Assembly (NCBI GenBank): GCA_050273025.1
Contig: CP158635.1
Coordinates: 3,658,001 to 3,722,000, forward strand
From: Cenococcum geophilum
Taxonomy: Eukaryota
Direction of reading: 5' to 3'
Length of the DNA: 64,000 bases
A program made the translations under genes and the position numbers. Shown here piece after piece: positions 1 through 63,294 of this stretch. The notes under the pieces are model-generated. The model saw nothing but the letters and a program-made list of their open reading frames with translations, had not been told where the DNA came from and made no database searches. Numbering within the stretch: position 1 is the stretch's first letter; every line of letters begins with the position of its first letter.

Positions 1-129
1 GTCGCGGATATAATAACTATAGCCCCTGCTCCGACTAACGGAATTAGGTTCTTTAGTATTACTATTCCACCCTACCTTTAGATAGCATCTAGTAAAGGAT
101 TCCGTACGGTAGGTATAGCTAAGAATTAT

Positions 130-5459: not shown

Positions 5460-5900
5460 ATAAGGCATTAGTTCCTGTAGGGGAGAGGAAAACATAGCTA
5501 TAGGCTCCTGTAGGGGACTAAAAGCTATATAGGAATGTAAGCTATAGGGGATTGGTTCCTATAGGGCGGTAGAATATATAGGTATTGGCACCTATAGGGG
5601 ATTTGTTAGCGTAGGGGATTTGTTAGTATAGGGGATTTATTAGAGTAGGGGACTAGCTCCTATAGGGGATTTGTTAGTATAGGGGATTTATTAGAGGAGG
5701 GGACTAGCTCCTATAGGGGATTTATTAGCGTAGGGGATTTATTAGAGTAGGGGACTAGATCCTATAGGGGATTTATTAAAGTAGGGGACTGGTTCCTATA
5801 GGGCGGCGAAATACGTGGGCATTGGCTCCCGTAGGGGATTTGTTTAAGTAGGGGACTTATTTAAGTAGGGGATTGGTTAGAGTAGGGGATTAATTCTCCT
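5460..5900. repeat. 17-bp-period minisatellite (TAGGGGATTTRTTAGNR / TAGGGGACTAGCTCCTA) with 3-unit higher order
   Basis: Directly visible tandem 17-mers from ~5,595 to ~5,898, more degenerate copies to the left. Confidence 0.9.
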
Positions 5901-6159
5901 ACGGCCTCTATTTAGGCGGTATAAGGCGGCTCCTAATAGGCTAGCAAGTGGATTGTGTATTTTGTGGAAAAATAAAGCCTATATAGGATGGTAGGGTATA
6001 GGGACCTAATAATCTGGCGGAAGATTGGGTTATCCGCTTTTCTGGGTTTATTTAGCCTACTCTACGCTATTTTATATGCGTTTTAACTAAGGCTGCTACC
6101 TAGCCTTAGCCGCCCAAATCTTTAGTTGTGCTGTGGAAGAGTATAAGATAATAAAATAT

Positions 6160-8554
6160 TATTCTATCTACTCTGCTAATACCTTTAGATCCTTCTATAC
6201 TTGTTAAAGTATCTTCTTTATCCTAGAATATAGCTCTAGATTATCCTTCTCCTACCTCCTACTATTTGGAAATACTACTTTTTAGAGCCTATTAACCTAG
6301 GGGACTAATAACTAATAGTACGGCGTAAAGTACTCCTCCGCTGTTTTAATGAAATCACCTTTATAAGCTACCTCTCCTTTTTTTTTTTAACTTAGCTAGC
6401 TCTTTAGTGTCTATATAATTCCACTTCTTAAACCTTAGGATAGGCTTGCGCTCCTTATTTAGACCCTCGTAATAAATATACATCTAGAAAAGCACCTAGA
6501 AGAACGACTCTAAATTATACCTAAAGGAGTGTTTCTTACCTAAAAGCACTCCTATAGCTATAAACGCTCTCGTACTAGTCTTGCCCCGTACTCCCAAAGG
6601 TCCTTCTCGCTTCTCTTTAATCGCGAGATTAAGATTAATTAAGAATGACTTCTAGGAGGGATTGTTGTCTTCCTCGTTTATTAAGAGGTTGCCTATTAAA
6701 ATGTTATGTTAGAGGATACTAGCCTACGTATATAAAGACTTATATTCTTTAATGCTACCCTTTAGTGTAGTAAGCATTGTAGCCGGAGAGCTTGCCTTAT
6801 AAAGAGCCTTTTTATAGTCGTAAGTGATAACGCGTTAATGCACCCAATTCTATATAATAGGGCGCTTAATCGGAGAGCTTAAATATGGGCGCTTATTAGG
6901 CGGTAACGGGGCGTTAGTATAGCTAGATGACCTCTTTCTACTAATACTTTAGCCTTTCCTTATACTACCTTGTACTCTAGCTACACTTAGAGGTACTATT
7001 AAGCTTTTAGGCTTATAGTTTGTTGCTTTGGTAATATCTAGCCCCTTATGGATATTAAAGATGTTATTATCTTGTCCACTTATATAAATAGTCCTATAGT
7101 AATAGTACCTAGCCACGTTAATTACTCCTTTCTCTGCTGCCTTATATAGCAGTTTGCCTTCTTCCTTGCGCTCTAGGTACTGCTACGAGTCTTTAATAAC
7201 GAGAGGTATCTTAGAGGTATTACCCTTATAGTGCGCTTTCTAGTAAGTTGTTGCCTGACTAGTAATATAGGGTGCCCGCTTTATAAGTTTGTTAAGGATA
7301 AGACGCTTAGTCTAATTATTGCGTATGACCTTAATATATTGTTTGCCGTCTAATGTTAAAATAGTAGGGTTAAACCCAAGCTGCTTTTTATTTATTAAGA
7401 GAAACCCTAATATTACCGAGGTAAATTATAGTCCGTCTTTATTAATATCGAATAGTAATAATGTAATGCCTCCTACCTGGTTATATTCCTATAGCTATAT
7501 AATAGATCTATAGAGGGTAAAACCTAAGATAAAGTGACGATTGTCCTAAGTAGTGAAGACTTTTCTTACGTATTTCCCTAAAGCAAACCATGCCTGTGAG
7601 GCTATATTGGTGTTTAGATTACTCTTTAGTTTTCTTGGTATAAGTATATATAACTAATAGCATTAAGAGCTTTCGCTAGCTATTGGATTATCTATAAAAC
7701 TAATATCTAGCTTTTGCTTCGCCGTAGACCCTTATAAGGGCTGCTTAGTGTATGTGATAAGCTTTTGTTATATCTTTAGGGCGGACCTATACTTCTTTGT
7801 AAAGCCTAAAAATAATTTAATTAGGTTATTAAACCACTTTAGGATATTATCTTGCTCTGCGCTTTTAGGCTAGTTACGCTAGCCGCCCTTATTAGTGTAT
7901 AGTGGATTATCCCCTTCCTTATATTTCTTGAAAACGGTAGCGCTTGCCTCTTTAAGACCTTCCACTCCCCTAAAGAATGCTTTGTATAAGCTAGAAATCC
8001 CTATATAAAGAGGGCCTAGCTTCTCCTTTAAAACATTATTTACGTATTTCCTATGTTTGGACGAGTTAGCGAAGCTGCTTGTGTTGCGTAGATATAGGGT
8101 TTAAATATAGAATGGTAGCGGTCGGGGGGGAGGCGTAGATTTTGTGATAGTAGTGTATACCTTTTCCTAAATAACTTTATTAGATTTAATCCGGAGGATC
8201 GTATTTAGAAGAGGCAGGAACCGTTTAATGTTAAAGTTATTGGAATTAACTACTAAATTAAGTCTTAACAGATTACTAAGGAGGTTTTTATTGCCGCTAT
8301 TGGACGGTAATAAATAAGAAGTAGGAAGGCTCTATAGAGTAAGTATTAGATTAAGCAAAATATCCTTTAGTCCTATAGGCGTTAGATAAAAACTTATAAT
8401 AGGTCTATTAATAGTTACCTTTATTACCTATTTAGTGTAACGAGTTTAAAGAGCTAGGGATGCCCAGATCCTAATAAGTTAAGTTAAATAAATTGTAAAA
8501 GTTATTTAGCCCTTCCCTAATAGGCTTTGTTTTTAATCTAAAAAGATTTGCTAT
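6160..8554 (-). pseudogene. FunK1 fungal-type protein kinase (Pkinase_fungal), RIP-inactivated
   Basis: Raw minus translation ~6,840-6,300: H*RVITYDYKKALYKASS...SIL*HNILIGNLLINEE...FLINLNLAI...GKTSTRAFIAIGVLLGKKHSFRYNLESFF*VLF*MYIYY, matching FunK1 motifs RDISIGN, LIDLDLA, TGTRAFMA, HDLESFFWV after G>A/C>T reversal. Ends approximate. Confidence 0.9.
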
Positions 8555-11500
8555 TATAGGTAGGCGCGCTAAGAGCTATATTAGGAGGGCTAATGTAGTA
8601 GGTAGGTAGGCAGGCGGGGGGGGATTAAAGAGACCAGTATATAAGGATGGTATAATGATAGAGAAGTAAATAAGTATAGGGAGGTTGAATATATATTGGG
8701 CGCGTCTTAAAATAAGGAAATAGTAAGAGAGGAAAGTATAAGGGAGAAAGTAAGGTGCAAGCGGAACGTGAGGAGGATTTAAAGGTTAGGTGTGGAAAAG
8801 TTAAGCTAATTTAACGTGGCTTAGACTAAGGCTTTATGGGGCTTAGTTAAATACTAAGCTATAATAACCTAAAGTATAGGAACATTGTTTGCAGTCCTAG
8901 TTATATAGGTTAAAAATATAGTGCGTATATAGGGTTCTAGTATTATTAGAAAGTTATAGGCAGCATTTATTAGTAATTGTGGTTATTAGCTTTTAGTTTA
9001 TTCTGCGACGCGTAAGGCTCTAATATAGTAACGCTAAAAGGCGCTAGGCAAGGTATAGCTGGCGATAGCGGGTTAATTATTGGGTTAGTTATATAAGCAC
9101 CTATAATTAATTATGTAGCTGGTCCTAAAACGAGCTAAACCTAATATGCTAAATATAGATATAGCCAACCCTATTTTATAGCGCTTAATTAACCTATTTC
9201 CTGTAACTAAGATCTAGTTCTTAGAACTAGATCCTTTTTTAGAATCGCGCCCTTTTTACAGCAGTTAATTGGTCTACTTCGTAAACCTGAATTAGAATCT
9301 TGGTTTTAGAATTAGATTCTATTCCCGGAATTATAACTTAAGCTATAACTAAAAATAGCTCCTTTCTTCTAAGACCGTTAAACCGCTTAGCTTAACGCTA
9401 TACCTTTTTAGCTATATTTAGTACGTTTGGCTTAGAATTGGGATAGAATAAAGTCTTTAGAATTAGATCTAGTTCTTAAAATAAGATCCTATTTTTAGAG
9501 TTATAACTTAGGCCAATATTAAAAGAGATATCCTATATTTATTCTCAATATTTCCACCTTATTAATATAAAATTTAGAGTTAACTCGTACCCTAGTTACC
9601 TATAAAAACGCTAGAAACTTTAATACCTTAACTTTAATTCTTTATGGAGGACCAAGTGAGTTATAGGGCGGCTGACTTATTGCTATTAAGCATATAAAGG
9701 TAGAGGACTTTACTATAAGCGAGTTCTTAACTTTAATTTAATATATATGCAAATAATAATAAGATACTCTTAATATAGAAGCAACTAGATAGAAAAATAA
9801 TGCCAAGCTAAAGAAATTCTAATTGGTGCCTTAATTCTTAACGCTAGAAAATAAGAACGTAATTATGAAAATCTTTTCTTATAAGAAATTTCTTATTTCT
9901 TTAGCTTCTTAGAGGCTCTATCTATAGTGTAATCTACCTTTCTTTTACGTGTCCCTCTCCTTAATAGATCTAAATAATTATTTAGCGCCTCTTTTAGTTG
10001 GTCTCTTTGCTTATATAGTTTACCCTTTTAAGCTATCTCTATTATAATATCTTTAAGCGGTTTATATATCCTAGTATAATAATAGAGGTAATGTGGGTTT
10101 TTAGTATAGTATAATATAAGTTTCTTATGCGGTATACCCGCGGGTAAAACCCAGGTAGGATACTAGCATACTACTATAATAGGACTATATATAAATACAA
10201 CTAATCTATATCTAGGGTTTTGGAGACGCTTTAAGTCCTCTATTATATAGTAAGTTAGCAACCATAATAAGAGATACTTTAGTTGTCTATCTAAAATTAT
10301 AGCATTAGAAATTATTAATACTTTAGTTAGGGGAGATATATCTCTAAAGAAGTTTGTATAATTAGCTAAACTATTCTCTACTTAACTATTAGTATTACTA
10401 AAAAATATATAGGTGTTTTATAAATATACTTAGAGGTACTAGTAAACCTTTAATATGGCCCTCTTTTAGTTAAGGTAAGTCTATTTTAGCCTCGCTATAG
10501 CTCTTTATTAGCTTAAGTAAGACTGTTTTAGTTTTGCTACGGCCTTCTAGGCTCTTAAGGTAATTAGCGTATATTTCTATATCCTCTTATATATTACCCT
10601 CCGTATTATTATTAATTCCATAAGAGTTAACCTTATTAGGTATTTAAGTAGGTATATAAGGTATCTATTTCTATATAGGGTCGGAAAGCTATAATTATTT
10701 CTTCTCCCTACTAGCAGATGTTATGTCTTTATTATTAATGTAATTTTAGGATAATTTAAGGTTTCTAGTAAGTTAATAAATAGGTATATTGTTTTCGGGG
10801 CGATAGTATATTGTAATATTTTTATAAGTACTAATTAAGGACCTATAGGTTATATTAGCAACGTATCTAAGCTTAGTTAAGGTAATATATATAATATCTG
10901 GTATTCTTATAGGGATATTAAGGGATATATGGTTAAGAGGTTAAATTTAAAGATAAGTTAAATTAATAGCATATAAAAACTAGGAGCATAATATTTATAT
11001 TCTATTTCTCTTCTAGGGCAGAGTTAGGATAGAAGGTAAAAGGGAAAGGCGGAGTATACTAGCCGCCCTTTTCTACTTTATATGGTGTTTGTGGTATAAT
11101 ATTTAGTGGCTATAATTACTCTTAGCTTATATATTGTCTGCGCCTGAGATTATAGGTGCCTAGAGTAATTTATAAGTGAGGCATTATTAGGGGTAGCTAT
11201 TAGCTAAGCTGCTGCTAAACTTAAATAGCTAACAATCCCTAACGGACGCCGTATACCTTAGTAGGGTTTAGAAGCGTTCGCATAAAGTTATAAACTAGAA
11301 TTAGAAGTTAATAATAACCCCTAATAACGCCTCTCTTAGCAGGAATAGTATTATATAATTTACTTTTAACGCCTATCCTTTCTGGGGCAAGACACTGCCT
11401 AAGTAGTAGACTTATCCTAGCTAGTTAATCTTATATATTAACCCCCCATCTGTGGTAAAGGAGCTATTAGTACCTTTAGGGTGGTTTAATTACTATTCTA

Positions 11501-12599
11501 GCTAAGCCCTTTATAAGCGCTCCGCCTTATATAGGCGGTAATTAACTCCTATTAATCTGCCTTGTGTTAGGGGAGATCTTTTACTTAAAGCGCTAAGCAG
11601 CCGGTACTTAGAGGTTTATAGGCTTATTCTATATTCTAATAATATTAACTATAATTTCTCCTTAAGTGGTATCCGTAACCCTAAGTACCTATAAGCGTAG
11701 CGTCCCTAAATTATTAGCTAGTGAGTAGGCGTTTATAGATAGAGAAACCGACTTTAGAGATAACGGCAATATAGAGGCGTTAGCTAGTTGGGAAAGTAAC
11801 TTTAGTAATAAGGATTAAGAATAGAATGCAGAGATATTATATAACGGAGAAAATAGTTTTAGTACTAAAGATTAAGAAATAGGGGTAAATAGTAATAAAG
11901 AGATGTCGAGCGACGAGGCTATATAGGCGACGGTTGGATATAGTGGCCTTAGTTTTATAGTCTTAAATCTATAAGTATAGGGTATAAATATAAAGAAGAT
12001 TTCTAATAAAAGCTAGTAAAAGGGTTAAAACTTTGGCTACTTTTTGTTTAGCCTATCGCGAAATAAAATAATATTTTACTATTCCTACCAAAGTCTCTAC
12101 CCGCTTGACTTATAGCGAGCTATAAAGTATTTGCGATAATTTATGCTTTTACTTAGATAAATTTATTTACTACCTTAAAAGTAATAATAGAAGGAAAATC
12201 TATGCTAATGACCTAGGATTTTTTAAATTTCTTATGGACCTGGGACGCATACTACCTTAGTAACTATTAGTCGTGTTTAAGACTACGGTACTTATAGATT
12301 TATATCTTAAGGATATAAATATATTTTTTTTATAGTGTTTTCTTTTTATTTAAATTATTTCTCTGGTTATGGTATATAGTGGTTATTTATCTATTCCGGT
12401 ATAGTAGGGAGGGGTAATTAGGTTACGCGAGAGGGGTTAGACTTATAGCTACGCTTATAGGGCTGTTTATATAGGAACTTCTCTAAGTATATATAAGGGG
12501 TCTTTATATAGGAACTTCTTTAATATTTCTAGATCTAGGACTTATATATTTCTTTTTTTTTTATAGTTCTAGTATTTTCCTAATATTTACTTCCTATTT

Positions 12600-13220
12600 A
12601 TATACTAGGCGTTAATAGAGGGCGCTAGGTCAGATTACCCTACTTATACAATCACTCTATTTATATAATTACTCTACTTATACAATCGCCTAGCTTGTAC
12701 GATTACCTAGCTTATATAATTACCCAGCTCGCATAATCACCTAGTTTACATGATCGCCTAGCTCGTATAATTACCTAGCTTATAGGATTGCCTAGCTTTT
12801 ATAAGCATTATGCTTATATAGTCACCTAGCTCGCACAATTACCTAGCTTATAGGATTGGCCAGCTCCTATGAGCATCTAGCTCGCACAATTACCTAGTTC
12901 GCACGATTGCCTAGCTTATATAATTACTTAGCTTATAGAATTGCCCAGCTTCTATAAGCACTATATTTATATAATCACCTAGCTTGTAGGATTAGCCAGC
13001 TCCTATAAGTATTTAGCTCGTATAATTAAAGCCGAAGTTATTAAACCTATTAATACCCTATTTACACACTAGGCATTAATTAGAGGGCGCTAAGTTAGAC
13101 TATTTTACTTATACGATTACCTAGCTTATAGGATCCCCTAGCTCCTACGAGCCCCTAGCTCCTATAAGCCCCTAGCTTTTATAAGCCCCTAGCTTCTATA
13201 ACCTCCTAGCTTATAAGACT
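12600..13220. repeat. 17-bp-period minisatellite (ATYRCCTAGCTYRYRYA-like) in two blocks
   Basis: Tandem units such as attacctagcttatata, atcacctagtttacatg, agcccctagctcctata; a shared leader (ctaggcRttaat...agagggcgcta) precedes each block at ~12,605 and ~13,069. Confidence 0.88.
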
Positions 13221-13779
13221 AAAGCTATAGCTACTAAATCCGTTAAGATCTTTACTACACGTACGTTAGAGCAGGCACTTATAATATTATTAGGTCAGTA
13301 TAGGGGTATATATAAAAGATAGGCCGGTATATAGGATGTATTAGCATATAGCTAGGGAAAAAGTAGAATAGTGAAATTGGCGGGCTGGTACGCAGGAATA
13401 TAATACTATTTAACTTTGCTTAATATGGCTTAGAGGAGTGTAGAGCCTTAACCTAAGCTATAGGAATATGTTCTTTAACTAAGCCTCTATTATATAACCA
13501 CTAACTACTTCTAGGCGCTGCGGCTGTATACCCCGCCACTTACCCTTCTTAGAACTTTAGAAGTTATACTAGTCCTTAGTTAAGCGACTAACGTTTAAAG
13601 CTCTAACTAACTAGCTAAATCCGTCGCAGATTAGATAAAGCTAATAATGACTTCTTAATGCATATATAGAGGCTCTAGAGCTATATTTAATAAAGTAGAG
13701 TTCTTATTCTTAATCGTCCTATTTAACACCAAATTACTCCCTTAAATATTACTTAAGATATAGTTAAAACTAGAGAAAT

Positions 13780-14785
13780 ATGCCATCTAAAAGTATTCTA
13801 TTTGGCTTAGCGCAGCTTATAAATAGCGAGAAATATAATAACTTAAAACTTATATGCTAGGGGCTGGAGTTTAAAGTCTATAAAGCGATTATATATACCC
13901 AATCTCTTATACTTACAGCTGCCTATAATAGAGGCTTTTAGGTAAAAGCTAACTAAATATTTAGTAGAATTGACCCTAACTAACTAACTAACGGGTAGGA
14001 GGCGGCGACTAATATTATAAATATTAACGAGTTCGATTCCGGTACCGTTAAGAGGATGATCTAATTTATATATAAGAGGGATTATAAGAATAGTAAGGAG
14101 GAGTAAGGATCTAATATTAACGACGCTGATGCCTTATCGCTATCTAAACTAGATAATAGCGGTGGCGATGATAAAGATATAATGATACGGCCGATAACGG
14201 CCCATATTACACTTTGTCACGTCTATATTAATGTAATTACTAATTACTATAATATACTACAGCTAAAAGAGCTTGCGAATATAAAAATCTAATATATTTT
14301 AGGAACTAGCTGGTCCGTAAATAGGTTTCCTAATATTATTAAGGATGTCTTTAGCCTAATAGGCGACTTAGTATTATATAATATAATTACCTTAATAGCG
14401 GCTAAGTATATTAAAGACCTTATTAAACTTAGGGACTTTATAGAGCTAGACGTTATAAGCAATTTCGCCATCGGTATTATACGGACAGCGATTACCGCAT
14501 CTAAGGATATGGAGGAAAATTTTATGCTAAAACTTTAAGCTGTTTAATCTCAGCTATAATAAATAGAATTACTGCTTTAATCCACTAAGGTAAGGTATGT
14601 CGCGGCTAAGCGCAAAAGTAAAAATATTAATAACTATCTTAATACCCTCTGTACGACTAGGACCTATTATAATATTAATTGCAGAGCTGAGTTTATATAT
14701 TATATTAAGGACAGTAGTTATCTATCCGACCCTAATTACCCTTATATACTTTGTTATAAAAGGTGCGAGTGTTATATATAAGTAA
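13780..14785 (+). pseudogene. BTB/POZ-domain protein, RIP-inactivated
   Basis: ATG 13,780; LAQLINSEKY...LKLIC*GLEFKVYKAIIYTQSLILTAAYNRGF, an intron, then EAATNIININEFDSGTVKRMI*FIYKRDY and TLCHVYINVITNYYNILQLKELA: typical fungal BTB fold plus following helices; Cys-rich tail. Confidence 0.88.
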
Positions 14786-14925
14786 AGATACATAGCTTAG
14801 GAGATCGGCTTAAGTAGGAAGTCATTATATTATTTAGGTTAATCTAAGAAATTCAAATGTATATCTCGTCCATAGTTAATCCATTAGATATTGTGTAGTA
14901 ACTATATTATCTATCTCCCATTAGC

Positions 14926-15077
14926 CTCCCCTTACCTTACCCCTTACCCTTTACCCCTTACCCCTTACCCTTTACCCCTTACTCCTTACCCCTTACTCCT
15001 TACCTCTTACCCTACCCTTTATCTTATCCTTTACCTTACCCTCACCTTTACCCTCACCTATTACCCCTTACCCCCCT
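14926..15077. repeat. (CCCCTTA)n-like C-rich simple repeat
   Basis: About 20 degenerate 6-7 bp units ccccttA/ccctca between the convergent BTB and captain 3' ends. Confidence 0.9.
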
Positions 15078-15312
15078 AGACGAATTATAAAATCCTAGTT
15101 ATTATATCTATTCTACTAAATACTAGAATAGGATTAGATAATAATAGACTAAAATAAAATAAAAAGTGGTAAAGAATAATAAGATAAGCGAGAAATAACT
15201 AGGAAAAGGTCCTATGTATAAGGAACGTATAGTTCTAAATTTACCAGTTATATACCTTTCTATTAGTACTAGAGGGTTAGTATAGGATTCTTATATAAGT
15301 AAGGCGACTTAC

Positions 15313-17834
15313 CTAGCAGTGCCTCTTAATTAGATGCTATACGCCATATATAAGGGCTACGTGATTTTTAAAATGCTTAAGTCCTTTAATCCACTCTAAA
15401 TAATAAGGATGCTTATAGCGGAACCTCTACCTAAACACTCCTTCTATAACGTGATTATTAAGATGCTTTTATAGTGTATCCTTTTTTATAAATAGGCGGG
15501 TCTGCCTTAGTATTAAGAGTTAGTTATCGCCAATATAGATAAGGCAAATAAGATTAGTAAACGTTATAGGATGCGGCAGCTGTATTATCTTAACACCCTC
15601 TTCCTTAATTGGGACCGTGCTCTACGTCTTATTTAGGTTTTCTTAAAAAGGCGAGTTTAAGCTAATATATTCTTTCTGCTGCTTTGCCTATTAATAGGTA
15701 CTAGTATTAGTGTTACTTATACCTCTTTTTACGCCTATTATACTTTAGTCTACTTTAGACCTAAGTTAAAGTCTAATAGCCTTGTTTAGGATCCTATTCT
15801 ACTAGCTTCTTATTAATTATAATACTTAACGAGATTACGGATAAACTTTATACGGAGTTTTATAGCGTGCCCTTTTTTAAGCTCGTTTAGCGGCTAAGAC
15901 AGCAGTTTAGCAATAGCAGCGCGTTTACGAAATTTATACTATATAGCTAAATGGGTAGGAATGTCCGTTCTAACGCTACCGCTAAGCTGTCTTTTAATAT
16001 TGTAATTATTAATAGCGTTATAAAAATTGAGAATGACTTAGTCCTCTTTTTGTTTATATAGGACGTTTATAACACTATAAAGTTTACGTCTAGCTTTATT
16101 GTAACGGTTATATAGTTTTATTCCCTTTACGGCGTTAATAAAGTAATATCCTTAGCTCCTAATCTTTCGCTTATATTGCTCTCGTTTCTTATAAAGCTAT
16201 AAAATATTAGGGTGTTAATTAAGTTCTAACTAGAATTTAAGTTTCTGCTTATTAGTTAGACCTATAGGGGCCCGCTTATCCCTTAAAATCCCTATCCGTG
16301 CGGCATATTAAATAAGGTTGTCCTATAATAAAGTCCTAAAGTAGATTAACTAGAAATTGCGCTTAATTAAATTAGGTAAATAAAACTATTAGTAGGTATT
16401 ACTGTAATAACCTATTATCTAATTTTGCTTTTCTAGAGTAAGGGTAGCTAAAAAGGTTAGTTAATAGATGCACTTATATTAAATTAGACACTTACTATTT
16501 AATTTTCTTCTAAACGCTTGTCGTAGCTAGTAAAGTTTAAGCGATTATTTAAACCTAGCTACTCGGCCTAACTATATGTAGTAATCACGGCATTTCTAGT
16601 AAGGGAATACTTTGGTGTCCGACACTCCCCTATAACTAGCTATTATCTTAATATCTTAAAAGATGGGTTGTTCCTCCATCTGCTTCTTAAACTTTACTTT
16701 AAAACTCTCTTTATTTACTAGGATTTTAAGTTTAAAAATCTCTTCTAGTAAAGTATAATAGCGTTAAAATATATTATCCGCAATAGTAAGGCTTATAAGA
16801 TAGGATAGAATATAAAAAGCTAGGATGCTTTTAAGACGGAAAATAAACCTCTTACTATAGGTCTATTAGCGCCATTCGCGCCATCTTTAATTAGTATCGC
16901 TATATACCGTCTACCTATGCCTTTAGAATTCTTAATATACACGAGACTTATAAGGGTAATAGTTGTGGTTTAATTAAAGTTTTTCACATCGCGAACTTTT
17001 AGGATTATGATATATTTATACAAAAGCGCTTTATTAGAGCCTCTTACGCTTAAACTTTTAATAAAAGCTTAGGGTCTTATTGCCGTAGCACTAGAGAGGA
17101 GGAGGATTGCTCCTATTTATACTCAAAAACGACTATAGTAAGGCTTTACGTCCATTGTTTAATAGGTATTAATAATTGTATATAAGTCTTATATATACAT
17201 TATATACTTTTCTTTCTCTAATATATCTAGCTCGTATATTAGCGTTAAGTAGGTTGGAATCCACTATAACAAATTAGCCAAGTTTTTTTTTTTAAAGGTT
17301 AAAGATCGCCCTATATCTTGTATATTAAGTTCTACGCCATTATTTATACTATAGCCTGCTATATCTATGAATTTGCATAGAATTTGTCTCTAGTACGCCT
17401 TAATCGCGCTTTCCTTTTTAATTCGAGAATTCTTTACGCGCTATTTAAGGTATATTTTAAACATATCGGCCACGTACTAATAAAGGGCCTCGGTTAGGTT
17501 AGACTTAACTTTTAGGTAGAACCTAAATATAAATTGTTAGTATTATAAGGTAAATCTTAGTTTAAATATAAACGAACTTTTCCTAATTCTAGAACTTATA
17601 CTTAATAAGAGAAGTAGACTAAGGCTTCTGTTTTAACTTCGCTCTTCCTTAACCCTTATAATACGCAATCTTCTGCCATAAATATTCCCCCTTAGACTTG
17701 GCGTCTTCCCTAGCTCTAGAGTTAGAGCTTAAATCTAAGTCTAAAGCTAGCTTAGAATAAGACGGCTTACCTAGTTTAAGGTTTAAGCTAGAGGCTAAAT
17801 CTGTATTTTGCCATTTCTTATTTTAAGAGGGCAT
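15313..17834 (-). pseudogene. DUF3435 tyrosine recombinase (Starship captain), multi-exon, RIP-inactivated
   Basis: ATG 17,834. Raw exons: MFKIYLK*RVKNSRIKKESAIKAY*RQI; WIPTYLTLIYELDILEKEK...GAILLLSSATAIRP*AFIKSLSVRGSNKALLYK; LGRVARFK*SLKLY*LRQAFRRKLNS; EKQN*IIGYYSNTY**FYL...RDKRAP; C-terminal Cys/His finger (CLIYIGD...KHL...HFKNHVALIYG). These match DUF3435 motifs (RP, LGRxAGF, YxLRR, MGH). Confidence 0.92.
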
Positions 17835-18450
17835 AGTGGTTAAACGCATAGTGTCTTAGTGCTTTAGTAGCTGCCAGTTACCTATACGTAAAAGCTAGCT
17901 TAAGAGTAACTACTATTAATAGGAACGCTAAAAAAGGCTCTATAGGAGATAGGCGTTCTTAAAAGCGGGACAGGGCTAAAAAACCCCATAAGTAGAAACC
18001 TAGAAATCGAGTATTAAAAGTGAATAATATAATAGCAGGGGAAAATGCATACGTAGCTACTGTGGGAAAATGGTTAAAGGAGCGTAGTATAGAAGGGAGG
18101 TTTTATCGGGTAAGGGTAGTACTTTTAGTAGAGGATAAGGACGAAGGTGGAAACTGGATTAAGTAGGCGGCGGACGTCCATAGCTTCTTAAATAGCTATT
18201 AAGGGACGTTTAGGGAGCTTCGAGAGGTGTGTTGTAGGGCTGCACGCGCGCTTCTAGGTTTGGTAGGTAAGAGAGACCCTACCGCCCTTGGCACGCTTAG
18301 CACGTTATAAAAGTGGCGACAGACATGGGTCTAAGCGAGGAGAAACAGCCTCCTAAAATGGGGGGTAGGAACCTCTAAATCCGGCTGCGTCTTCCCCAAT
18401 AACAAGATTCTAGTAGGAATAATAACTAAGGTTATATAATAAGCTATATA

Positions 18451-21400
18451 AAAAAAGCCATAGTAGCAGTAAAACTAGCCTAAAAACTACTTAATAAAGC
18501 AATCTAATATCGGAATCCTACTCCTAGTACTAAGAAACCCTATAAAACTATGTTGCCCCTATCCGCAAAGTATAGGGGACAACGGAGGGGCGTAGGCTCC
18601 CCGCTAGAGTCGCGAAAGTCGCGACGCGACAGAGCCGAACTATAAACTAGGTAGGTAATAACGCGAAAAGGATAGCTGCTAGCTTAACCAGCAGTGGCAA
18701 AAACTAAAGGAAATACTTAGATAAATTAAAGACGATCTTATAAAAGAGGAGGAAGAAACTCTACGGTACTAGATACTTACTTCCGTTTAAGAGGTAATAT
18801 AATAAGTTAAAGCCCTTTTAACGCGCCTAGCCCCCTAAACAACCTAAGAAAAAGAGACTAAGGCCTAGCTTAACTGGATTAAAGCTAGTATTAAGAAAAT
18901 TTAAAAAGAAATATATAAAGCAGGACCTTTAGGCTTAGGAGCCCCTTTAGTATAGGGCTAGACCTAGGCAGCCGTTACTGCGCAGGCGGCCCATATGGTA
19001 AACACAGTCGCGACACTATAGAGAGCAACCGTACGCGTCCGGCTTAAGGAGCCCTAGGGCCACGAACTATGGGAGCTCCTTAAGACTATCTAGAAGATAA
19101 TACTAAGTATATACGCGGTACGCACCCTTAATAGTAGGGACGTAGATGTTTATATCCCCTCCTAAATAATAAAGGACTAAATCCTAAACGGACTAGATAT
19201 GCTAGGACTAAAGATACTAAGGAAAGACTACCTCCTAGAAGTACCTAGGGTCCCGCTTAAAACCCTAATTAATAGTAAAAGAAACGTAGATAATGTGGAA
19301 TTAACCTAATCTATCTATAAAGCTATAAAGCGCCTTGTGCTTAGGATAGCTATTAGCTAAATCTAATGGCTATATAACCCTAAAGCGTAGGCGAAACGTT
19401 AGGTAAACCCTAGTAGTACTTAGAGAGAGCCTAAGAAGACTAGAGAAATAATTATAATTAGTGTTCTAACCTAGGCAATTTAATAAAAAATTATAAAAAG
19501 TGGGATAGTTATTAACTCCTAGCTCTTTAAAACTAGGCTATTTAAGAACAGCCTAATTATAAAGCAATGCTACCGCTATAACTAATAGGGATATATATAA
19601 AGCGTATATAGAAAGTAAATAAAATGCGGGTAATATACGGGACTATATAGCACTATGGATTACCCTAAGAAGAGGGTATCCTACGTTAATTACGGTAAAG
19701 CCTATAAAGTATAGTAAAGAAAGGAGTATAGGACCTTCTAAAGCTATTTTAAGGGTATTTAAATAAAAAGGATGGCCCTCTTAACGCAGTCGCTCCGTAT
19801 ATAAGAAGCTATAGAAATAATACTCCAATCTCCAATACTAGGAAATTTTATAATTATTACTAATAAAAAAAGAGGACGGGAAATATTGTACCTAGGGACC
19901 TAAGAATAACTACTTAAATGGGGACTAGGTAAACTATTATTTATTAAAAGAGCAAGTAGAGATAGATTATAAGTAAGGCTTTAGCTTCGCGCTAATAGAG
20001 TAATAATAATTACTAGTAAAAATAAAGAGGAATAGGACATAGATATAGATAAGCCTATACCCACTTAAAATGAGTAGGTATATAATTATCTAGTATAACT
20101 ACGGAAATGCAAACCAAGGGGTATATCGCCCCTTCTTTAACAGCGTTATACTGGTGGACTATTAGGTCCTTATAGTTTAGGAGCTGGCATATAATAGATA
20201 CACTAAATTAACTTACTGCCCTAGGGGATTTACACTTATATATAACGCTCTCCCTATAATAAAGGTCTGCTTTATAATTAGCTAGAATATTAATACTACG
20301 TATTAAAAACGCAGACAGTACGGCCCCTTTATTATAGCTCTATAGCTGCGCCTAGAAGGACTAAAGACTATAATTATTAACGTTTATAACCTACGCGGAA
20401 ATGGCCCCCAAATTAAGACATGGCTGGAGGTTAAAATAGCTATTAAGGAGGCTAAGGGAGAAATTATACTCCTAGGCGATTTTAATGCCCACTACCTAAT
20501 ATAGGGCGGAAAATATATAGCTAGCAAAGAGCAGGCGGAATACCTCCTGGCCGAAACTAATGCTAAAGGTCTTATACTCGCCATACTAAAAGGAGAACCT
20601 ATATAGAAAAGAGGGTAATAGGAGAGTGTAATTAACCTCACGTTTATATCACCAGACCTATATAGGAAAGTTAATTTCTATAGTATAGTTAAGGAATGGG
20701 CCCTTATAAGAGACTATATACCTATCCGCATCTAAATTAATAACGTAGGCTATCCGCCAGCGGAACGCTAGCGCTTCGCCCTTAGGAAGCTAAACTTATA
20801 AGACTTCTTCTAAAGCATTTAGGAGCTTAACTAGGCTATATCTAAAGATCCCCTTTATACCCTCTAGAAAGGGATTAAGTAAGCACTTAAATAATACTAC
20901 CTATAAGCATAGCCCAGCAAGTAGGCCCGCTAAGAATAGTTGCTATACGCTATACAGCTACACGCTAGCGCCCGCTAGGCGCAATAATAGCTCTAAGCTT
21001 ATAACAACCCCTAGGACCATTAAAGATATCTAGCACTAAGCAATTAACTGCAAAAAGAGACTAGGAGAGTTAGTTGTAATAACTAAAGGCGCTTTATCTA
21101 TAAACTTACTAAGGACTAAATAAAACCTTATAATAAGGGACTCTGGATTCTATTAAAGTAGAGTAGAAAAGCAAGCGTAGCGAAGGTGGACCCCTACTTA
21201 CTAGACCTTAGGAGGTCTACTAAGAACCCCCTAATAAATAATAACACTATAAAAGCTAAGATTCTTATAGCTAAGTTCTTCCCTAAAATAAGAATAGCGA
21301 ACTTAAATAATATTAAGATAAAAGCAATAATAGAATAAAGGGTACTTAATATTAGCCTAATTATCTTAATAGAAGAACTTAGTAAGCTAATTAGGAGCCT

Positions 21401-24400
21401 CTTAAATGGAAAAGCCTTAGGACTAGATGGTATACTAAATAAGGTTCTTAAAGTAGTTGTGTGACAGTGCTGGTGCGCGTCACCTGCCACATTTAACCAA
21501 TTAGGATTTTCCATGCCCGGCATGGAAAATCGCTATTGGCTCGCTTACCACTAGCGCCTTAGCGGCCCTCGCGACATGTCTACCTACTGCCCCTGAACGA
21601 TTCTCCTTCTTCTTCTCCTTAGCTTAGTATCTTTACTAGATAGCAATCCACAAGCTTCGGTTCAGAGGCAATTGTGCGAGCCGTCACATTATACTAAGCT
21701 CTCCTTCCACTGCCTGGGAAGGCCTTAATAATATCCCACCCCTAAAAAAGAGAAGATCTTCGTCTGCAATAACGCGTTAACACACTATACTCAGACATCT
21801 AAATAACTCTATACTGCCTACGAAGGCCTTAACAATACCCCACTTTGCGAGCCAGATAGGACTAGACCTATACCCCCCGGAATTAAAACCGAATTGTACA
21901 ATTCCGACGAACCCTAGGAAGCCAATAATGGCACCTAAAGCAAGCTTATCTAAAAGAGCTGCCCCAACCCAAGAAGAATACGAGATTTAATTGGGATCCG
22001 AAATTGAAGATAACGATGATATTATAGACGTATACAAGCAGATTCGTGCCCTAACGGCTAATTAAGAAGCTAACCGTCTCTAAGCTTAAAGCACACAGGA
22101 GACCCTACAAGAGATCCTAAACAGCCTTGCAGCTCTTTAAAGCAGCTTAGCTCCCCCTTTTAGAAGTCCTAGTTAACCTATCTACTTAACCAAGGATAAT
22201 ATACCAGGGAGTACGGAAACAATAACGAAGTAATTAAAGTCCGTTAAGCTCCTTGACCCCTAACCACTGTCTAATAGGATAGACCCTACCTTTAAGAATT
22301 AGAGGATTTAAATATAAGGAAAGCTCCGCGTTAACTATAACTATTTCCTTTCTAAAGAAGCTAAGATGCTTTACCTCTTTAGTTAAACTACTAGGGACGC
22401 CTAAAAGCACCTCCAAGCCAAGTTTGAGGACGAGTTACCTGTTCGGTTTACATCTGTTAATAAGATACTATAGCACCTAGCGGCTATCTATATAAACCTG
22501 AATAAAGTACGCAACGCTAGGTACAACTATAATCGCCTAATAATAAGACCGAACCAATTCTTTACTAAGTTTTAGACCTAATTCCTATACCTAGCAGGCG
22601 AAGGCTAGGTCCCCCTTAAAAACTACTAATTAGACCTATATAATAAACTAACAGTTTGATTATAAGAGAAGATTACGGTAGCCCTAGACGACCTACCAAC
22701 CCACTAAAGACTTATAGCCCGTTGTCTGTCATTGGATTTAAAACTACGGCGAATTAATACCCGCACCAATCGGTAGAAGAAATCCTATAGTAATTAAAAA
22801 CCGACAATTACACCTACTGGGGCTGGCACTGGAAAACTAGTGGAAAGTACCCCTATACCTAAGGTAGGTATAACTGCCCTTTAGTAGGCCTCTCCCAATT
22901 GACCACGTGCTACGCCCCTAACTAATACCTATTGTAACACCCTAATCGACCCTGCTACAGCCACGTGCTTTAACTGCGGAAAAGATAGATACTTTGCCTC
23001 GTCTTGCCCAGAGCCGAAAGATATAGGCGATATTAAGGAGATAGAGGAAGGAGAAACGTCCGACGAGTCGGGAAAAGAAGAACCCTAGGGAAAGACTCCC
23101 CCCTAGGGTACCCTATTGATCTTAAAGAGATTAATCTAAGTTAGTTAATGGGTGGAAAACACTTTACGGTTCTATATATAGTATCTTAAAATGCATATAG
23201 AGTTAATATAACCGCCCTTATTAACACTGGAGCAAATGGCTTTGCCTTTATAGATACTACCTATATAACTAACGTTGCTAGGTTCCTAAATATAAAAGCC
23301 ACCTAGCTAGAGAAGCCTGTTTAAGTAAAAGGCTATAACGGCCAAGCCGGTAAGCCGGTTACCTACGTATTAAAGTTATATATTTCCCTTAATAGACGAC
23401 GCCTATATGGTATACCCTTCTGTATTCTAAACCTAGGTTCCTATAACATAATCCTTAGTTAGAAGTAGATATCCTATTTCAATATCTGGCTAAACGTTTA
23501 ATAAAGGTAGCTTATTTGGCCAAAGGATAGACCGAAATTACCCTCCTTTATTAAAGAGATCCGAACTAACTGTAGGACATTAGCCGTAAAGGCGGATCCC
23601 ACCTATAAGTAAAATATTAGGGACTGGGACCTAGCCTTTATATAGGAAGACGCCCGTTACGAAGCTAGTAAGAACCCTATACTAACGAAAATACTCTCCC
23701 GTAGTGCTATGGTTAAAGAGGACTCTATATACGGAAGCGGAACGGATAGTAACGTAAAAGTCGCCTAAGTTGCGAAGATCCGACCTATATGGAAGAGGAC
23801 CTACTAATAGGATACGAGAGATAGCCTCTGGAAGATGCAGTAGGAGCTAAAGGGAGGAACGAGAAGGTCGATACCCTAGAAGCCTCGGAAATTATATATA
23901 CCCCTACTATCACGTAACCCTCCTACGTTAGATATTGCGGCTATTAGTGCTATAGGGTTCTACTTTAATATATACCAGAAGGACAACGAGGTTTTTATAA
24001 CTAGCTTATACGAAATCAACCGGATTATTAATAAGAAGGAAGAAGGGCTAGCTGAGGAAAGTAATGAGGAGCTAGTTAAGCGCCTCTTTCCTACCTATCT
24101 CTTAAGCTATAGAGACGCGTTCTCGAAAGCAGCTTTAGATATGCTACCCCCCTACCAAATATATAATTATAAGATTTAATTAGAAGCCAATAACTTGCTA
24201 GGATATAGCCCCCTCTATTAATAATTAACGGATAAGCTAAAGGCAATAAAGCAGTACTTAATTAATAACCTTAATAAAGGGTTTATCGAGCCTAGCTAAG
24301 CCCCTTTTGCTTTCCCTATTCTATTTATAAAAAAGCCTAATAGAGGCCTTTGTTTTTGTATTGACTATTAGAAACTAAACGCTATTACTTAAAAGGATCG

Positions 24401-27400
24401 GTATTCTATTCCTTTAATTGACGAGACCCTTATACGTTTAAGCTAGGTAAAGATCTTTACCAAACTTAATATCCGCTAAGCTTTCTATTAAATTAGGATA
24501 GACCCTATATCTAAAGATTTAATAACGTTCCGTACCCGTTATGGGTCCTATAAATATAAAGTCCTTCCTTTTAGGTTAATAAATGGGCTAGCTATATACT
24601 AAAGGTACATAAATAATGTCCTTTTTAACTACCTTAATAAGTTCTACACGGTATACCTGGATAATATCCTTATATACTTGGACGACAAACTTAAGCATAA
24701 AGTTCATGTTAAGAAGGTCCTAGAGAGATTACGGAACGCGGGCTTACAAGTTAATATTAAGAAATGTAAATTTAGGGTAAAACGCACGAAGTACCTTGGG
24801 TTTATTGTGAGTATAGATGGGATTAAAGTTAACCCTAAAAAGGTTAAAGCAATCCGTAGCTAGAAGCCCCCTTGTACTATAAAGGGGATCCAGTCCTTCC
24901 TTAGCTTTTATAATTTCTATTACTAGTTTATCTATAACTATAGAGTTATAGCAAAGCCTCTTATACGACTTACCCAGAAAGATACGCCTTTTATATTTAA
25001 TAATGACTATATAGAGGCCTTCGGAGAGTTAAAGGATCGGCTTATCTCTTCTCTAATTCTGTGTTATTATAACCCGGATCTTAAATTAATGCTAGAAATG
25101 GATACTTCCGACGGAGTTATAGTAGGAGTCCTATTACAGTTACATCTGGACGGCAAATAGTACCCTATTACTTTCTTCTTAAAAATAATAGACCTGGCCG
25201 AGTATAACTACGAAGTATATAATAAAGAAATGCTGGCTATTATTTAATCGTTGTCCTAATAGCGCGCGGAGCTTAAAGGCATGAATTCTTGGATTAAGGT
25301 CTATACTAATTATAAAGCCTTAGAGTATTTTATAATAATAAAGCAGCTTACCGGCCGATAGGCTTAATAGGCTAAAATACTCTCTTAATTCTTTTTTACG
25401 ATTATATACCGCCCGGGTACATAAAACTCTAAGGCTAATGCTTTAACCTAGAGAGAATAGGACGTAGGCCCCTAGGATAAGCTAAAGGCGCAACATTAAA
25501 TATGCGCCCTCCTCTGTCCTAAACAGCTTGACCCACGTATCCTTAAGGAACTGAGCTCTAAAGAGAATAAGCTAGTACCTATAAAAGGAGAGTTCTTAGA
25601 CAAGCTAATGGGATTAGTTAACTACATCTTAACCATAAACCGCACGGTTAAATCCCTAAAGGCCCTCCGCGACTAGGCCTTAAAAGGTAACCCTAATTTA
25701 GAAATAGAAGAAGAACTACTCTTATACTAAGAACGGCTTATAGTTCCGGATATTAACAACCTACGGACAGAGCTAATCCGTGAGGCCCACTGTTAAGTCT
25801 TAATGGCGCACCTTGGTTAGGATAAGACCCACCAACTACTAGCGCCCTATTACTATTGGTGAGGACTCCTATTTAATATAAAACGATTTATTAGAAACTG
25901 CTACGCCTATAAACGTGCGGATGCCCCTAGGGATCGAACTCCTAGGTAGTTACGTCTATTGCCAGTTCTAGAACGCCCTTGGCAATATATTATAATAGAC
26001 TTTAAGTCGTTTCTAAAGGACGCCCACGGCTATAACGCGGCCTTTATAGTAATTAACCGACTATATAAGTAATCCGTCTCCCTCCCTTGCTTTAAGACCA
26101 CAACTGCGAAGGATATGGCTCGCCTTTACATCAATAATATCTATCGATTCTATGGCGCTCCCAAATTAATTATCTCTAATTGTGGTCCCTAGTTTATATT
26201 GGACTTCTAGAATAAATTTTGCCGTATCCTTAGGATTAAGATTAAGCTCTCTACCGCATTCTACCCTTAGACTAATAGCTAAACTAAGATTATAAACCAG
26301 TACCTTAACTAGCGACTACGTCCCTTTGTAAACTACTATTAGGATAACTAGTCGGAATTACTGCCTATAATAGACTACGCGCAGCTTACGCTCCCCCATA
26401 ATAGCATAGGGATATCGCCATTTGAACTGCTTAACGGGTACGCACTACGAACGTCCTTTAATTGGGATAGGCCTACTAAACCTACTACGGCTCGCGAACG
26501 CCTTAGCCACGAAGAGGCCTAGGCATTTGCTGAGAGAATACACGGGGCCTAGGAGACTGCTTAAATAATTATAAAAAAGGCGTAAGAGAAGAAAGAGGCC
26601 GACGTAAATTAGTATTGTCGCGAAGTAGACTTCTAAGTAGGAGATAGGGTATAGGTATTAACAAAAAACTAGAAAACCTAGAGGCCAAGCCGCAAGTTAG
26701 ACCACTAAATGGCTGGTCTATATAAGATTTTGGAGAAGGTAGGATACTCCTTTAGGGTCGAACTACCAGATTCAATAAAGATCTACCCTATTTTCTCCCC
26801 AGACCGATTATAAAAGGCTGCGAATAACCCACTGCCTAGATAGTATAACGACCCTCCGCCGCCAATTTAGATTGTAGAGGATAAGGAATAGGAAGTTAAA
26901 GAGATCCTAGCAGTTAAGAAGGTCTATAGTGTCTTAAAATACCGTATAAGCTAGGTTGGCCACGATAAGGACCTAGAATGGTATCCTGCATCTAATTTTA
27001 AGTACTCCCCCTATAAACTACAAGACTTCCACCTAGCCTACCTAGACCTCCCCAGACCACCAAGCAAGTTAGATAGCTGGATTAAATGCTAGAAAGAAGG
27101 GTTAGATAATTATAATAATTTAGACAATAATAAGGAACTTGGATAACGCCTAAGGGCAGGCTTTTTTAAGAGGGGGGGGTAATGTGACGGTGCTGGTGCG
27201 CGTCACCTGCTACATTCAACCAATTAGGATTTTCCATGCCCGGCATGGAAAATCGCTATTGGCTCGCTTACCACTAGCGCCTTGGCGGCCCTCGCGACAT
27301 ATCTACCTACTGCCCCTAAACGATTCTCCTTCTTCTTCTCCTTAGCTTAGTATCTTTACTAGATAGCAATCCACAAGCTTCAGTTCAGAGGCAATTGTGC

Positions 27401-50200: not shown

Positions 50201-50244
50201 ACCATTTTGCCGTACTTATGTCTCGATTGACTGAGTTACTAACA
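44274..50244 (+). mobile_element. Ty3/Gypsy chromovirus E, full length, RIP-inactivated, related to B
   Basis: 227-bp LTRs 44,274-44,500 and 50,018-50,244; TSD GGACT; G-run PPT; gag, protease, RT (YLDNIIIY ~47,400), RNase H, integrase, chromodomain (~49,625-49,780); pol and pre-PPT sequence resemble element B. Confidence 0.97.
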
Positions 50245-58278: not shown

Positions 58279-58362
58279 TGCACGCAAGGTTTTTTTGATT
58301 TTATAGTCTATGTATGTGTATCATATTCTGTACAATAGGCTGACTGGGATTCAGCTGTGTAT

Positions 58363-63284: not shown

Positions 63285-63294
63285 TCTTGATCAT

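What the first reader, a model, noticed from the sequence alone, without database searches (positions are those of the whole stretch)
15313..18414. Cryptic Starship captain hidden by RIP, invisible to ORF calling
Seen: manual minus-strand translation recovers a multi-exon DUF3435 tyrosine recombinase with RP, LGRxAGF, YxLRR and MGH-like motifs and a C-terminal zinc finger. Known: DUF3435 captains are the first gene of Starship giant transposons. Inference: 1-18,414 is the head of an unannotated dead Starship whose ancestral captain can be reconstructed and placed in a family.
Basis: partly seen in the sequence, partly recalled or inferred. Interest (0 to 1): 0.8.

Follow-up and report, generated by a model that had tools for sequence, protein, structure and literature searches.

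The report
Dead multi-copy captain recombinase transposon
A mutation-riddled tyrosine-recombinase ("captain") gene really is hidden here, but it sits in a short repeat present in dozens of dead copies, and nothing shows that it heads one giant Starship.

Summary
Minus strand 17834-15313 carries a multi-exon DUF3435 tyrosine-recombinase pseudogene (Pfam E 1.9e-23). It is riddled with RIP stops and keeps remnants of the RP, LGRxxxF, YxLR(R) and MGH motifs and a C2H2 finger.

A RIP-blind pattern search found 16 further copies in metagenome contigs. Upstream flanks are unrelated.

Downstream, all 11 informative copies share only 15105-18416 (3.3 kb). Seven share 13313-15104 as well, and none is collinear with 1-13312. 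Read-through Pfam scans of 1-15400 found no Starship accessory gene, only a RIPped FunK1 kinase.

Laid contigs suggest roughly 70-100 copy-equivalents per genome in three runs. All 17 copies are dead. A deRIP consensus restores the catalytic motifs.

Best reading: a derelict copy of a high-copy, captain-first element with a sharp 5' end and an unresolved, ragged 3' end. It is not shown to be a giant Starship head.

The parts
18404..18416 (-). 5' terminus of the repeat unit. In gene orientation the unit starts CTACTAGAATCTTG...; on the + strand it ends ...GATTCTAGTAG at 18416.
   Evidence: Eight loci (L001, L002, L003, L005, L007, L012, L014, L015) and the window lose homology at this same base. 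Upstream flanks are unrelated, except that L002, L005 and L012 share a flank.
15313..17834 (-). RIP-degraded, multi-exon DUF3435 tyrosine-recombinase (captain-type) pseudogene with a C-terminal C2H2-type finger remnant. The start codon was not determined.
   Evidence: Pfam PF11917, E 1.9e-23. Homologue mapping 17521-16907, 16853-15828 and 15738-15484, plus fragments reaching 17834 and 15312. 36 stops in the P0004-aligned part. Finger remnant.
15105..18416 (-). 3.3-kb core shared by every copy: the terminus, about 0.6 kb of leader, the recombinase gene and about 0.2 kb of trailer.
   Evidence: blastn of the window against 16 loci gives 84-91% identity. All 11 copies that reach the 3' side share sequence up to 15105 and then split into two classes.
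13313..15104 (-). 1.8-kb tail following the core in 7 of 11 copies, with no recognisable domain. It contains a (CCTTACC)n microsatellite at 14935-15074.
   Evidence: Found only directly downstream of cores in the loci and the window. No Pfam family in six frames. Tandem repeat. Summed depth is about twice that of the core.
15108..15131 (.). 8-bp inverted repeat with an 8-nt spacer (CTATTCTA N8 TAGAATAG) at the 3' edge of the core. TAGAAT recurs at the 5' tip. Possible recombinase site; weak evidence.
   Evidence: Fold, (z -1.24; 29 of 200 shuffles fold as well). Conserved in copies.
6481..7710 (-). Not part of the unit: a RIP-degraded FunK1 (Pkinase_fungal) pseudogene in a different high-copy repeat.
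   Evidence: PF17667, E 5.2e-50 and 2.9e-28, profile 2-386 of 387 in one frame. Not collinear with any other copy of the recombinase unit.
20370..20669 (+). Not part of the unit: endonuclease domain of a non-LTR retrotransposon lying upstream of the unit's 5' end.
   Evidence: PF14529 Exo_endo_phos_2, E 4.5e-7.

Best explanation
Window 13313/15105-18416 is one dead copy of a multi-copy DNA element whose first and only recognisable gene is a DUF3435 (Starship-captain-type) tyrosine recombinase.

Shown:
- The gene reads inward from a terminus at 18416 that many copies share to the base.
- The copies differ almost only by C-to-T and G-to-A transitions, and every copy examined is inactivated.
- The unit common to all copies is 3.3 kb. 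Longer shared forms reach about 5.1 kb and 6.6-6.9 kb.

Inferred:
- Before RIP, the recombinase moved this short captain-first unit, probably through excision and re-integration as proposed for Starships and Cryptons. That raised it to tens of copies.
- RIP then killed all of them.
- The ragged 3' side comes from truncation, from later insertions, or from use of alternative downstream ends.
For: Identity of the gene.

RIP. In one search, 1,545 of 1,607 kinds-of-change places in run X1 are transitions.

Multi-copy status:
- 16 loci from one 50-nt purine/pyrimidine pattern, 9 of them from one metagenome record set.
- At single variant places in the gene, 26 (place 15618) and 23 (place 18071) distinct contigs in X1, and 31 in X9.
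- Summed depth over 15341-18675 is 7,840-8,980 in X1, where the listed single contigs have depth 75-108. It is 439-581 in X5 (contigs 5.5-8.3) and 679-1,214 in X9 (contigs 5-11). This gives roughly 70-100 copy-equivalents.

Sharp 5' end.

Extent of sharing.

No accessory domains.

All 17 copies dead: 6-57 stops, core GC 0.28-0.38.

Ancestor functional-looking: deRIP consensus GC 0.516, stops 48 to 14, catalytic motifs restored.

Independent published counts, valid if the host is C. geophilum: 132 recombinase predictions, tyrCount 37, elementCount 0. The survey average is 10,771 predictions in 2,899 genomes.
Against: - No 3' terminus was found at which several copies end against unrelated flanks.
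- At 15105 the copies split into just two shared continuations (7 and 4 copies), not into many.
- Three copies (L003, L005, L012) have their 5' flank inside a repeat that is also present uninterrupted at window about 35135-36566. That repeat does not resume within 10 kb downstream of the element. This fits a longer element or a rearrangement.
- L003 and L007, which have unrelated 5' flanks, share patches out to about +9.8 kb. However, a 4.5-kb part of that stretch occurs inverted in L014, so it is an independent repeat.
- The 1.8-kb tail has about twice the summed depth of the core, so it may also exist on its own.
- The tool itself warns that summed contig depth is not a copy number.
- No direct repeats or empty site were shown.
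- Family placement among Starship recombinases was not done.
Confidence: 0.6

Rival explanations
1. 1-18414, and sequence beyond the window start, is the head of one giant derelict Starship. The FunK1 kinase and the other sequence downstream are RIPped cargo with later insertions.
For: The captain is first and reads inward from a sharp 5' end. The 3' end is not found within 10 kb in three other copies. RIP runs without a break over 1-51000. The starfish paper reports that some families sit in TE islands where boundaries cannot be found (passages).
Against: None of the 8 loci that extend beyond the tail is collinear with 1-13312. The only shared pieces (885-1406 and 5923-6769) occur inverted in other loci. 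Depth along the span is stepwise, about 4,000 to 43,000. No accessory gene family was found. Copies that were near-identical before RIP share only 3.3-6.9 kb. RIP continues equally over retrotransposon-like repeats to 51 kb, so the composition marks no element.
Confidence: 0.12
2. The whole element is the 3.3-kb core (15105-18416). It integrates site-specifically beside the ends of other transposons. The 1.8-kb tail and the alternative continuation are target elements, not part of the unit.
For: The split into two continuations falls exactly at 15105. The tail has about twice the depth of the core. In the window, a 24-27-nt inverted repeat abuts both core edges exactly (15084-15110 and 18414-18440), with a third copy of the motif at 13833-13854. 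An 8-bp inverted repeat with an 8-nt spacer sits at the core's 3' edge.
Against: No solitary copy of the tail was seen in about 250 kb of loci and window, though few would be expected. In L005 the interrupted repeat does not resume at the core edge. The inverted-repeat flank is seen in the window only. The terminal hairpin is not better than shuffles.
Confidence: 0.2
3. The unit was not spread by its own recombinase. A captain pseudogene was captured or carried by another mechanism, such as a Helitron-like rolling-circle element or segmental duplication within TE nests.
For: One conserved end and one ragged end is also the pattern of end-bypass capture. On the + strand the conserved end reads ...CTAGTAG and is followed by T in 8 of 9 copies.
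Against: There is no hairpin upstream of that end (z -0.09). The end is GTAG/GGAG, not a clean CTRR. The other hallmark, a 5' TC, is untestable without the other end. The deRIP consensus has intact catalytic motifs and introns, as for a functional gene at the time of the burst. Seven distinct flank contexts at one base argue against segmental duplication.
Confidence: 0.08

Closest known systems
Starship giant transposons (DUF3435 'captain' tyrosine recombinases; Gluck-Thaler et al. 2022, Urquhart et al. 2023, Gluck-Thaler and Vogan 2024)
   Same: A DUF3435 recombinase of about 700-800 aa with RP / YxxRR / MGH..Y motifs. It is the first gene at the 5' end and reads inward. It sits in AT-rich, TE-rich DNA and is susceptible to RIP (a 'derelict' copy).
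   Different: The unit shared between copies is 3.3-6.9 kb, whereas the smallest reported element is 15,020 bp and the survey discarded anything under 15 kb. No cargo or accessory genes. Tens of copies, against an expected low copy number (Voyager 0-4). No direct-repeat-bounded second end or empty site.
'Solo' Starship recombinases and Enterprise-like elements
   Same: The starfish paper reports 559 elements with boundaries against 10,212 solo recombinases, and leaves open whether the solo ones move only themselves. Vogan et al. 2021 found multi-copy Kirc homologues with a conserved motif at the element start but no preserved 3' terminus. Both match what is seen here.
   Different: Here the 5' terminus is defined to the base in nine copies and a copy-number estimate is given. 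The terminal sequence (CTACTAGAAT...) is not the Enterprise CTACCT/AGGTAG motif. No chromodomain was found in intact homologues.
CryptonF transposons of fungi
   Same: Small DNA transposons of a few kb, multi-copy, with introns, whose only gene is a tyrosine recombinase. They have no long terminal inverted repeats and at most short direct repeats (passages).
   Different: Per the passages read, Crypton recombinases fall outside the monophyletic DUF3435 captain clade. This protein and its homologues score strongly on DUF3435. Placement against CryptonF sequences was not tested here.

Membership tests
Starship | Encodes a DUF3435 tyrosine recombinase (captain) | tested here: met
   PF11917, E 1.9e-23, 83.6 bits against cut-off 25.8, on the X read-through. 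Eight of 8 full-length intact homologues and 1 of 2 C-terminal fragments score on DUF3435 (E 1.9e-92 to 3.3e-25; P0025 has no family).
Starship | Captain is the first gene at the 5' end and reads into the element | tested here: met
   The terminus at 18416 is shared by 8 loci and the window. The homologue match starts by 17834 and runs to 15313 on the minus strand.
Starship | Catalytic RKHRY residues | tested here: inconclusive
   In the window, RP is kept, YxLRR reads Y*LRQ and MGH reads IGY. The deRIP consensus has TRP, Y.PRR and MGH..Y. Residues were not mapped onto HhpA, Cre or XerD, and the Lys was not located.
Starship | Second boundary with direct repeats, shown by an empty site or insertion polymorphism | tested here: not met
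   No common 3' terminus. In 15 copy-by-homologue tests, the interrupted repeat never resumed downstream; the only hits were a separate full repeat copy in L012 and L003's own element. 5' flanks end in TAA in 6 of 9 copies, but no matching 3' repeat was seen. A whole genome and isolate assemblies were not available.
Starship | Large size (15 kb to more than 500 kb) with protein-coding cargo | tested here: not met
   Shared unit is 3.3-6.9 kb. No stop-free frame of 90 aa or more in 1-21190. The only domain in 1-15400 is a RIPped FunK1 kinase in a non-collinear repeat.
Starship-like region | DUF3435 co-located with DUF3723, ferric reductase, patatin-like or NLR genes | tested here: not met
   Six-frame X read-through Pfam scans at E<=0.01 of 1-7300 and 8101-15400 (six frames), 7201-8400 (minus-strand frames only), 17800-21500, and L007 +3.6 to +10 kb. 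None of these families was found. Heavy RIP lowers sensitivity.
Crypton (CryptonF) | Recombinase belongs to the Crypton clade rather than the captain clade | not tested
   No Crypton reference sequences were available to the tools. The strong DUF3435 score and the literature passages argue for the captain clade.
Crypton (CryptonF) | Compact element whose only gene is the recombinase, multi-copy, with short direct repeats | tested here: inconclusive
   Compact shared unit and multi-copy status are met. The 3' end and direct repeats are not resolved.
Helitron | 3' CTRR end preceded by a hairpin, with insertion before T | tested here: not met
   The end reads CTAGTAG or GGAG and T follows in 8 of 9 copies, but there is no hairpin (z -0.09).

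The most novel reading that the evidence does not exclude
This is a cargo-less, captain-only member of the Starship recombinase superfamily that behaved like an ordinary high-copy transposon. It reached on the order of a hundred copies before RIP. Its conserved 5' end, combined with alternative 3' ends (3.3, 5.1 and 6.6-6.9 kb forms), records one-ended capture of downstream DNA. That would be a small-scale picture of how Starships pick up cargo, and a direct answer to whether 'solo captains' move by themselves.
Probability: 0.3. Interest if true: 0.7.

Novelty: new variant of a known kind. Interest (0 to 1): 0.45.

Why it matters
Surveys find about twenty times more 'solo' captain genes than bounded Starships, and they discard anything under 15 kb. 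So it is unknown whether captain recombinases also drive small, selfish, high-copy elements.

A family with a base-exact 5' end, a short shared unit and tens of copies would show that they can. It would also give a tractable system for finding the recombinase's DNA sites.

For this genome, it adds a DNA-transposon family to the account of a repeat-bloated, RIP-saturated genome. It also shows that RIP-blind (purine/pyrimidine) searches recover families that ORF- and identity-based tools miss.

If the unit turns out to be only the stump of larger elements, the finding is an ordinary derelict captain.

Tried and rejected
- Whole-genome tools: no genome is held for this window.
I used smaller X read-through batches instead. 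Not scanned for domains: 21501-64000, and the plus-strand frames of 7301-8100.
- Earlier findings of this scan: nothing by place, sequence or words.
- Paralogous empty sites: 15 tests, none informative.
- Terminal inverted or direct repeats in 13200-18500: 126 inverted pairs and 58 direct families, mostly chance. Only the pair abutting both core edges was kept, as unexplained.
- Terminal hairpins were no better than shuffles.
- Runs with small word shares (X18-X24) and the low cover of X21 are not used as evidence of absence of this insertion. They are only a hint that the repeats are less abundant or more diverged there.
- Presence or absence of this particular insertion among isolates could not be read from contigs, because paralogous copies cover everything.
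- Joints (for example 4708 to 21533) were not interpretable as empty sites.
- Family assignment by starfish models or a phylogeny with reference captains and CryptonF: no reference sequences could be brought into the tools.
- Literature searches for a compact high-copy DUF3435 element or a Cenococcum Starship gave no such description in the listings and passages I read. Search terms: DUF3435, Crypton, Starship; Cenococcum, Starship; Starship, captain, high copy number, tyrosine recombinase; Starship, DUF3435, copies, RIP, pseudogenized. This is not an exhaustive search.
- Structure prediction, fold search and complex prediction were not used. They would not bear on the open question, which is the extent of the element.
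Full report
**Setting.** The window has a RIP signature from base 1 to about 51000: GC 0.26-0.41, TpA/ApT 1.5-1.9, composite RIP index about 0.9-1.65. Composition is normal from about 52 kb on. There is no stop-free frame of 90 aa or more in 1-21190. No whole genome is held for this window.

**The observation.** I read the minus strand of 15313-18414 through with X at every stop.
- One frame hits Pfam DUF3435: E 1.9e-23, 83.6 bits, profile 100-370 of 418. The other two frames hit nothing.
- A full HMMER scan of 1.84 billion representatives gave 198 hits at E<=1e-3 and 15 at <=1e-30. The best is a 738-aa Coniosporium apollinis protein (P0004, 41% identity, E 1.1e-67), followed among named full-length hits by a 705-aa Plenodomus tracheiphilus protein named as C2H2-type (P0017).
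- Mapping P0004 back gives three blocks in three frames: 17521-16907, 16853-15828 and 15738-15484. There are two in-frame insertions of about 50 nt that look like retained introns, and a 53-nt gap at the first frame change.
- Shorter fragments extend the match to 17834 and to 15312.
- The C-terminus aligns with the C2H2 finger of P0017, with Cys replaced by Tyr.
- Eight full-length intact homologues carry DUF3435 and, at Pfam's own cut-off, no other domain (one has a sub-threshold DUF1543 match); of two C-terminal fragments one carries DUF3435 and the other no family.

**Other copies.** RIP only makes transitions, so I recoded 50 nt of the gene as a purine/pyrimidine pattern and scanned the metagenome contigs. 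This found 16 loci, nine of them from one record set. blastn against the window gives 84-91% identity over the gene region.
- Eight loci reach the upstream edge. All eight, and the window, lose homology at one base, window 18416 (+ strand ...GATTCTAGTAG|).
- Beyond that base the flanks are unrelated, except that L002, L005 and L012 share a flank. That makes seven contexts.
- Three loci are truncated or rearranged inside the unit (L010, L013, L016). In five the contig ends inside it (L004, L006, L008, L009, L011).

It is a true element terminus with the recombinase gene reading inward from it.

**Downstream extent.** Eleven copies (ten loci and the window) carry sequence past the gene.
- All eleven are alike up to window 15105.
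- There they split into two classes. Seven continue with the same 1.8 kb (window 13313-15104). Four continue with another sequence that they share for only 100-370 nt.
- Of the five long-form copies with more sequence, three (L001, L003, L007) stay alike to +5.3-5.6 kb from my anchor at 17110. The window and L012 break off at nearby but different points.
- L003 and L007 share further patches to about +9.8 kb. However, a 4.5-kb part of that stretch lies inverted in L014, so it is an independent repeat.
- Nothing in window 1-13312 is collinear with any of the eight loci that extend that far. The two shared pieces (885-1406 and 5923-6769) occur in inverted orientation in other loci.
- The 1.8-kb tail was found only behind cores.

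**Copy number.**
- 20 of the 24 listed runs hold part of 11500-21400.
- Laying contigs of four runs on 2001-22000 at 90% likeness placed 23,752, 17,287, 19,360 and 1,776 contigs.
- 1,545 of 1,607 kinds-of-change places in X1 are transitions.
- Single variant places in the gene are covered by 23-31 distinct contigs.
- Summed depth over the core is 7,840-8,980 in X1, where listed single contigs have depth 75-108. The ratios in X5 and X9 are similar. That is roughly 70-100 copy-equivalents. In X21 it is only a few.
- The tool warns that summed depth is not a copy number, so this is an order of magnitude.
- Depth is stepwise along the span: about 4,000-6,000 at 2-5.3 kb, 38,000-43,000 at 11.3-12.7 kb, about 16,000 over the tail, 8,000-9,000 over the core, and 91,000 at the repeat starting at 21.4 kb. 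This is what a mosaic of different repeat families gives, not one duplicated element.

**Content.** Six-frame read-through Pfam scans at E<=0.01 gave:
- nothing in 8101-15400;
- in 1-8400 (7301-8100 minus-strand frames only), only a full-length but RIPped FunK1 kinase domain at 7710-6481;
- in 17800-21500, only a LINE-type endonuclease at 20370-20669;
- nothing in 6.4 kb downstream of copy L007.

None of the Starship accessory families appeared.

**State of the family.** All 17 copies carry 6-57 stops in the homologue-aligned part and have core GC of 0.28-0.38. Inside a script I made a deRIP consensus, taking C over T and G over A at mixed columns.
- GC rises from 0.334 to 0.516.
- Stops fall from 48 to 14.
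- Identity to P0004 rises from 38-46% to 44-59%.
- The motif blocks read LLLSGATATRP, WLGRVAGFK, LY*PRRASGR and MGHYGDTYQRFY.

More copies are needed for a clean reconstruction.

**What argues against a simply compact element.**
- I found no 3' end at which several copies stop against unrelated DNA.
- For three copies whose 5' flank lies in a repeat also present intact at window about 35135-36566, the repeat does not resume within 10 kb.
- The tail has about twice the depth of the core.
- In the window alone, a 24-27-nt inverted repeat abuts both core edges.
- The core's 3' edge is an 8-bp inverted repeat with an 8-nt spacer, but its fold is no better than shuffles.

These points are left unexplained.

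**Literature.** I read passages found by term search, not whole papers.
- Starships are defined as regions with a DUF3435 gene at the 5' end bounded by repeats. 'Starship-like' regions need the accessory genes. Captains form a clade apart from Cryptons. Voyager has 0-4 copies (PMC9156397).
- Starships are expected to be low-copy. RIP-inactivated copies are called derelict. Elements under 15 kb were discarded and the smallest kept was 15,020 bp. The ratio of bounded elements to solo recombinases is 559 to 10,212, and it is stated to be unclear whether solo captains move only themselves (PMC11162782).
- Enterprise-like multi-copy Kirc homologues keep a start motif but no 3' terminus (PMC8092012).
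- The nearest named RIP-like fragments are from Cenococcum geophilum 1.58.
- The starfish supplement lists that genome with 132 recombinase predictions (S3 rows 3766-3897), tyrCount 37 and elementCount 0. The family labels I saw were fam01, fam04, fam05 and fam06.
- A term search of the main text of the 2026 chromosome-scale genome paper for that species found no DUF3435, Crypton or tyrosine (PMC12910237).
- I could not link this copy to a listed prediction or a family.

**Verdict.** The gene and its upstream boundary are real. The claim of a giant Starship head over 1-18414 is not supported. The best-supported reading is a derelict copy of a high-copy, captain-first element whose shared unit is 3.3-6.9 kb and whose 3' end is unresolved (confidence 0.6).

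Noticed in passing
window 6481-7710 (-): Full-length FunK1 (Pkinase_fungal, PF17667) domain in one frame, riddled with RIP stops. It lies in DNA with summed depth of about 11,000-23,000 in X1, so a kinase-bearing sequence is itself a high-copy repeat.
   Followed up: partly
window 5592-5895 and 12634-13212: Two arrays of 17-bp tandem repeats bracket the kinase region. Pieces of 8721-8873, 12199-12278 and 13075-13203 occur together, inverted, right behind the recombinase core in locus L014. This suggests a large element with subterminal repeat arrays and later insertions.
   Followed up: partly
window 15084-15110 and 18414-18440; also 13833-13854: A 24-27-nt inverted repeat abuts both edges of the 3.3-kb core exactly, in the window copy only. 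A third copy of the motif lies inside the 1.8-kb tail. The meaning is unknown: it could be a target palindrome or the end of another transposon.
   Followed up: partly
window about 35135-36566; loci L003, L015, L002/L005/L012: Three of the seven independent 5' flank contexts of the recombinase unit lie at different positions and orientations in one repeat family, which is present uninterrupted here. This reflects either an insertion preference or simply the abundance of that repeat.
   Followed up: partly
window 20370-20669 (+): Endonuclease domain (PF14529) of a non-LTR retrotransposon. Its 5' part would start close to the recombinase unit's terminus at 18416.
   Followed up: no
window 21460-27411, 34087-43576, 44274-50244, 36644-37864, 29683-29973: Direct-repeat pairs of 183-433 nt spaced 1.0-9.1 kb apart, and one solitary inverted copy, look like nested LTR retrotransposons. 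The pairs at 21.5 kb and 44.3 kb enclose related interiors (67% identity over 1.1 kb). Domains were not checked.
   Followed up: no
runs X1, X5, X9 and X21 laid on window 2001-22000: One isolate with the same species label (X21) places about 10-13 times fewer contigs at 90% likeness than the other three runs. This hints that all these repeat families expanded, or stayed similar, in only some lineages.
   Followed up: no
locus L007, about +3611 to +3764 from the anchor (window equivalent 13313-13466): The last 150 nt or so of the 1.8-kb tail is inverted in L007 relative to the window and L001. The breakpoints of the window and L012 copies fall in the same 100-nt zone.
   Followed up: no
window 52000-64000: Normal-composition DNA with long open frames (for example 52658-54103 on +, and 58363-59619 on -). 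This is the gene-bearing flank of the RIPped block. Not examined.
   Followed up: no
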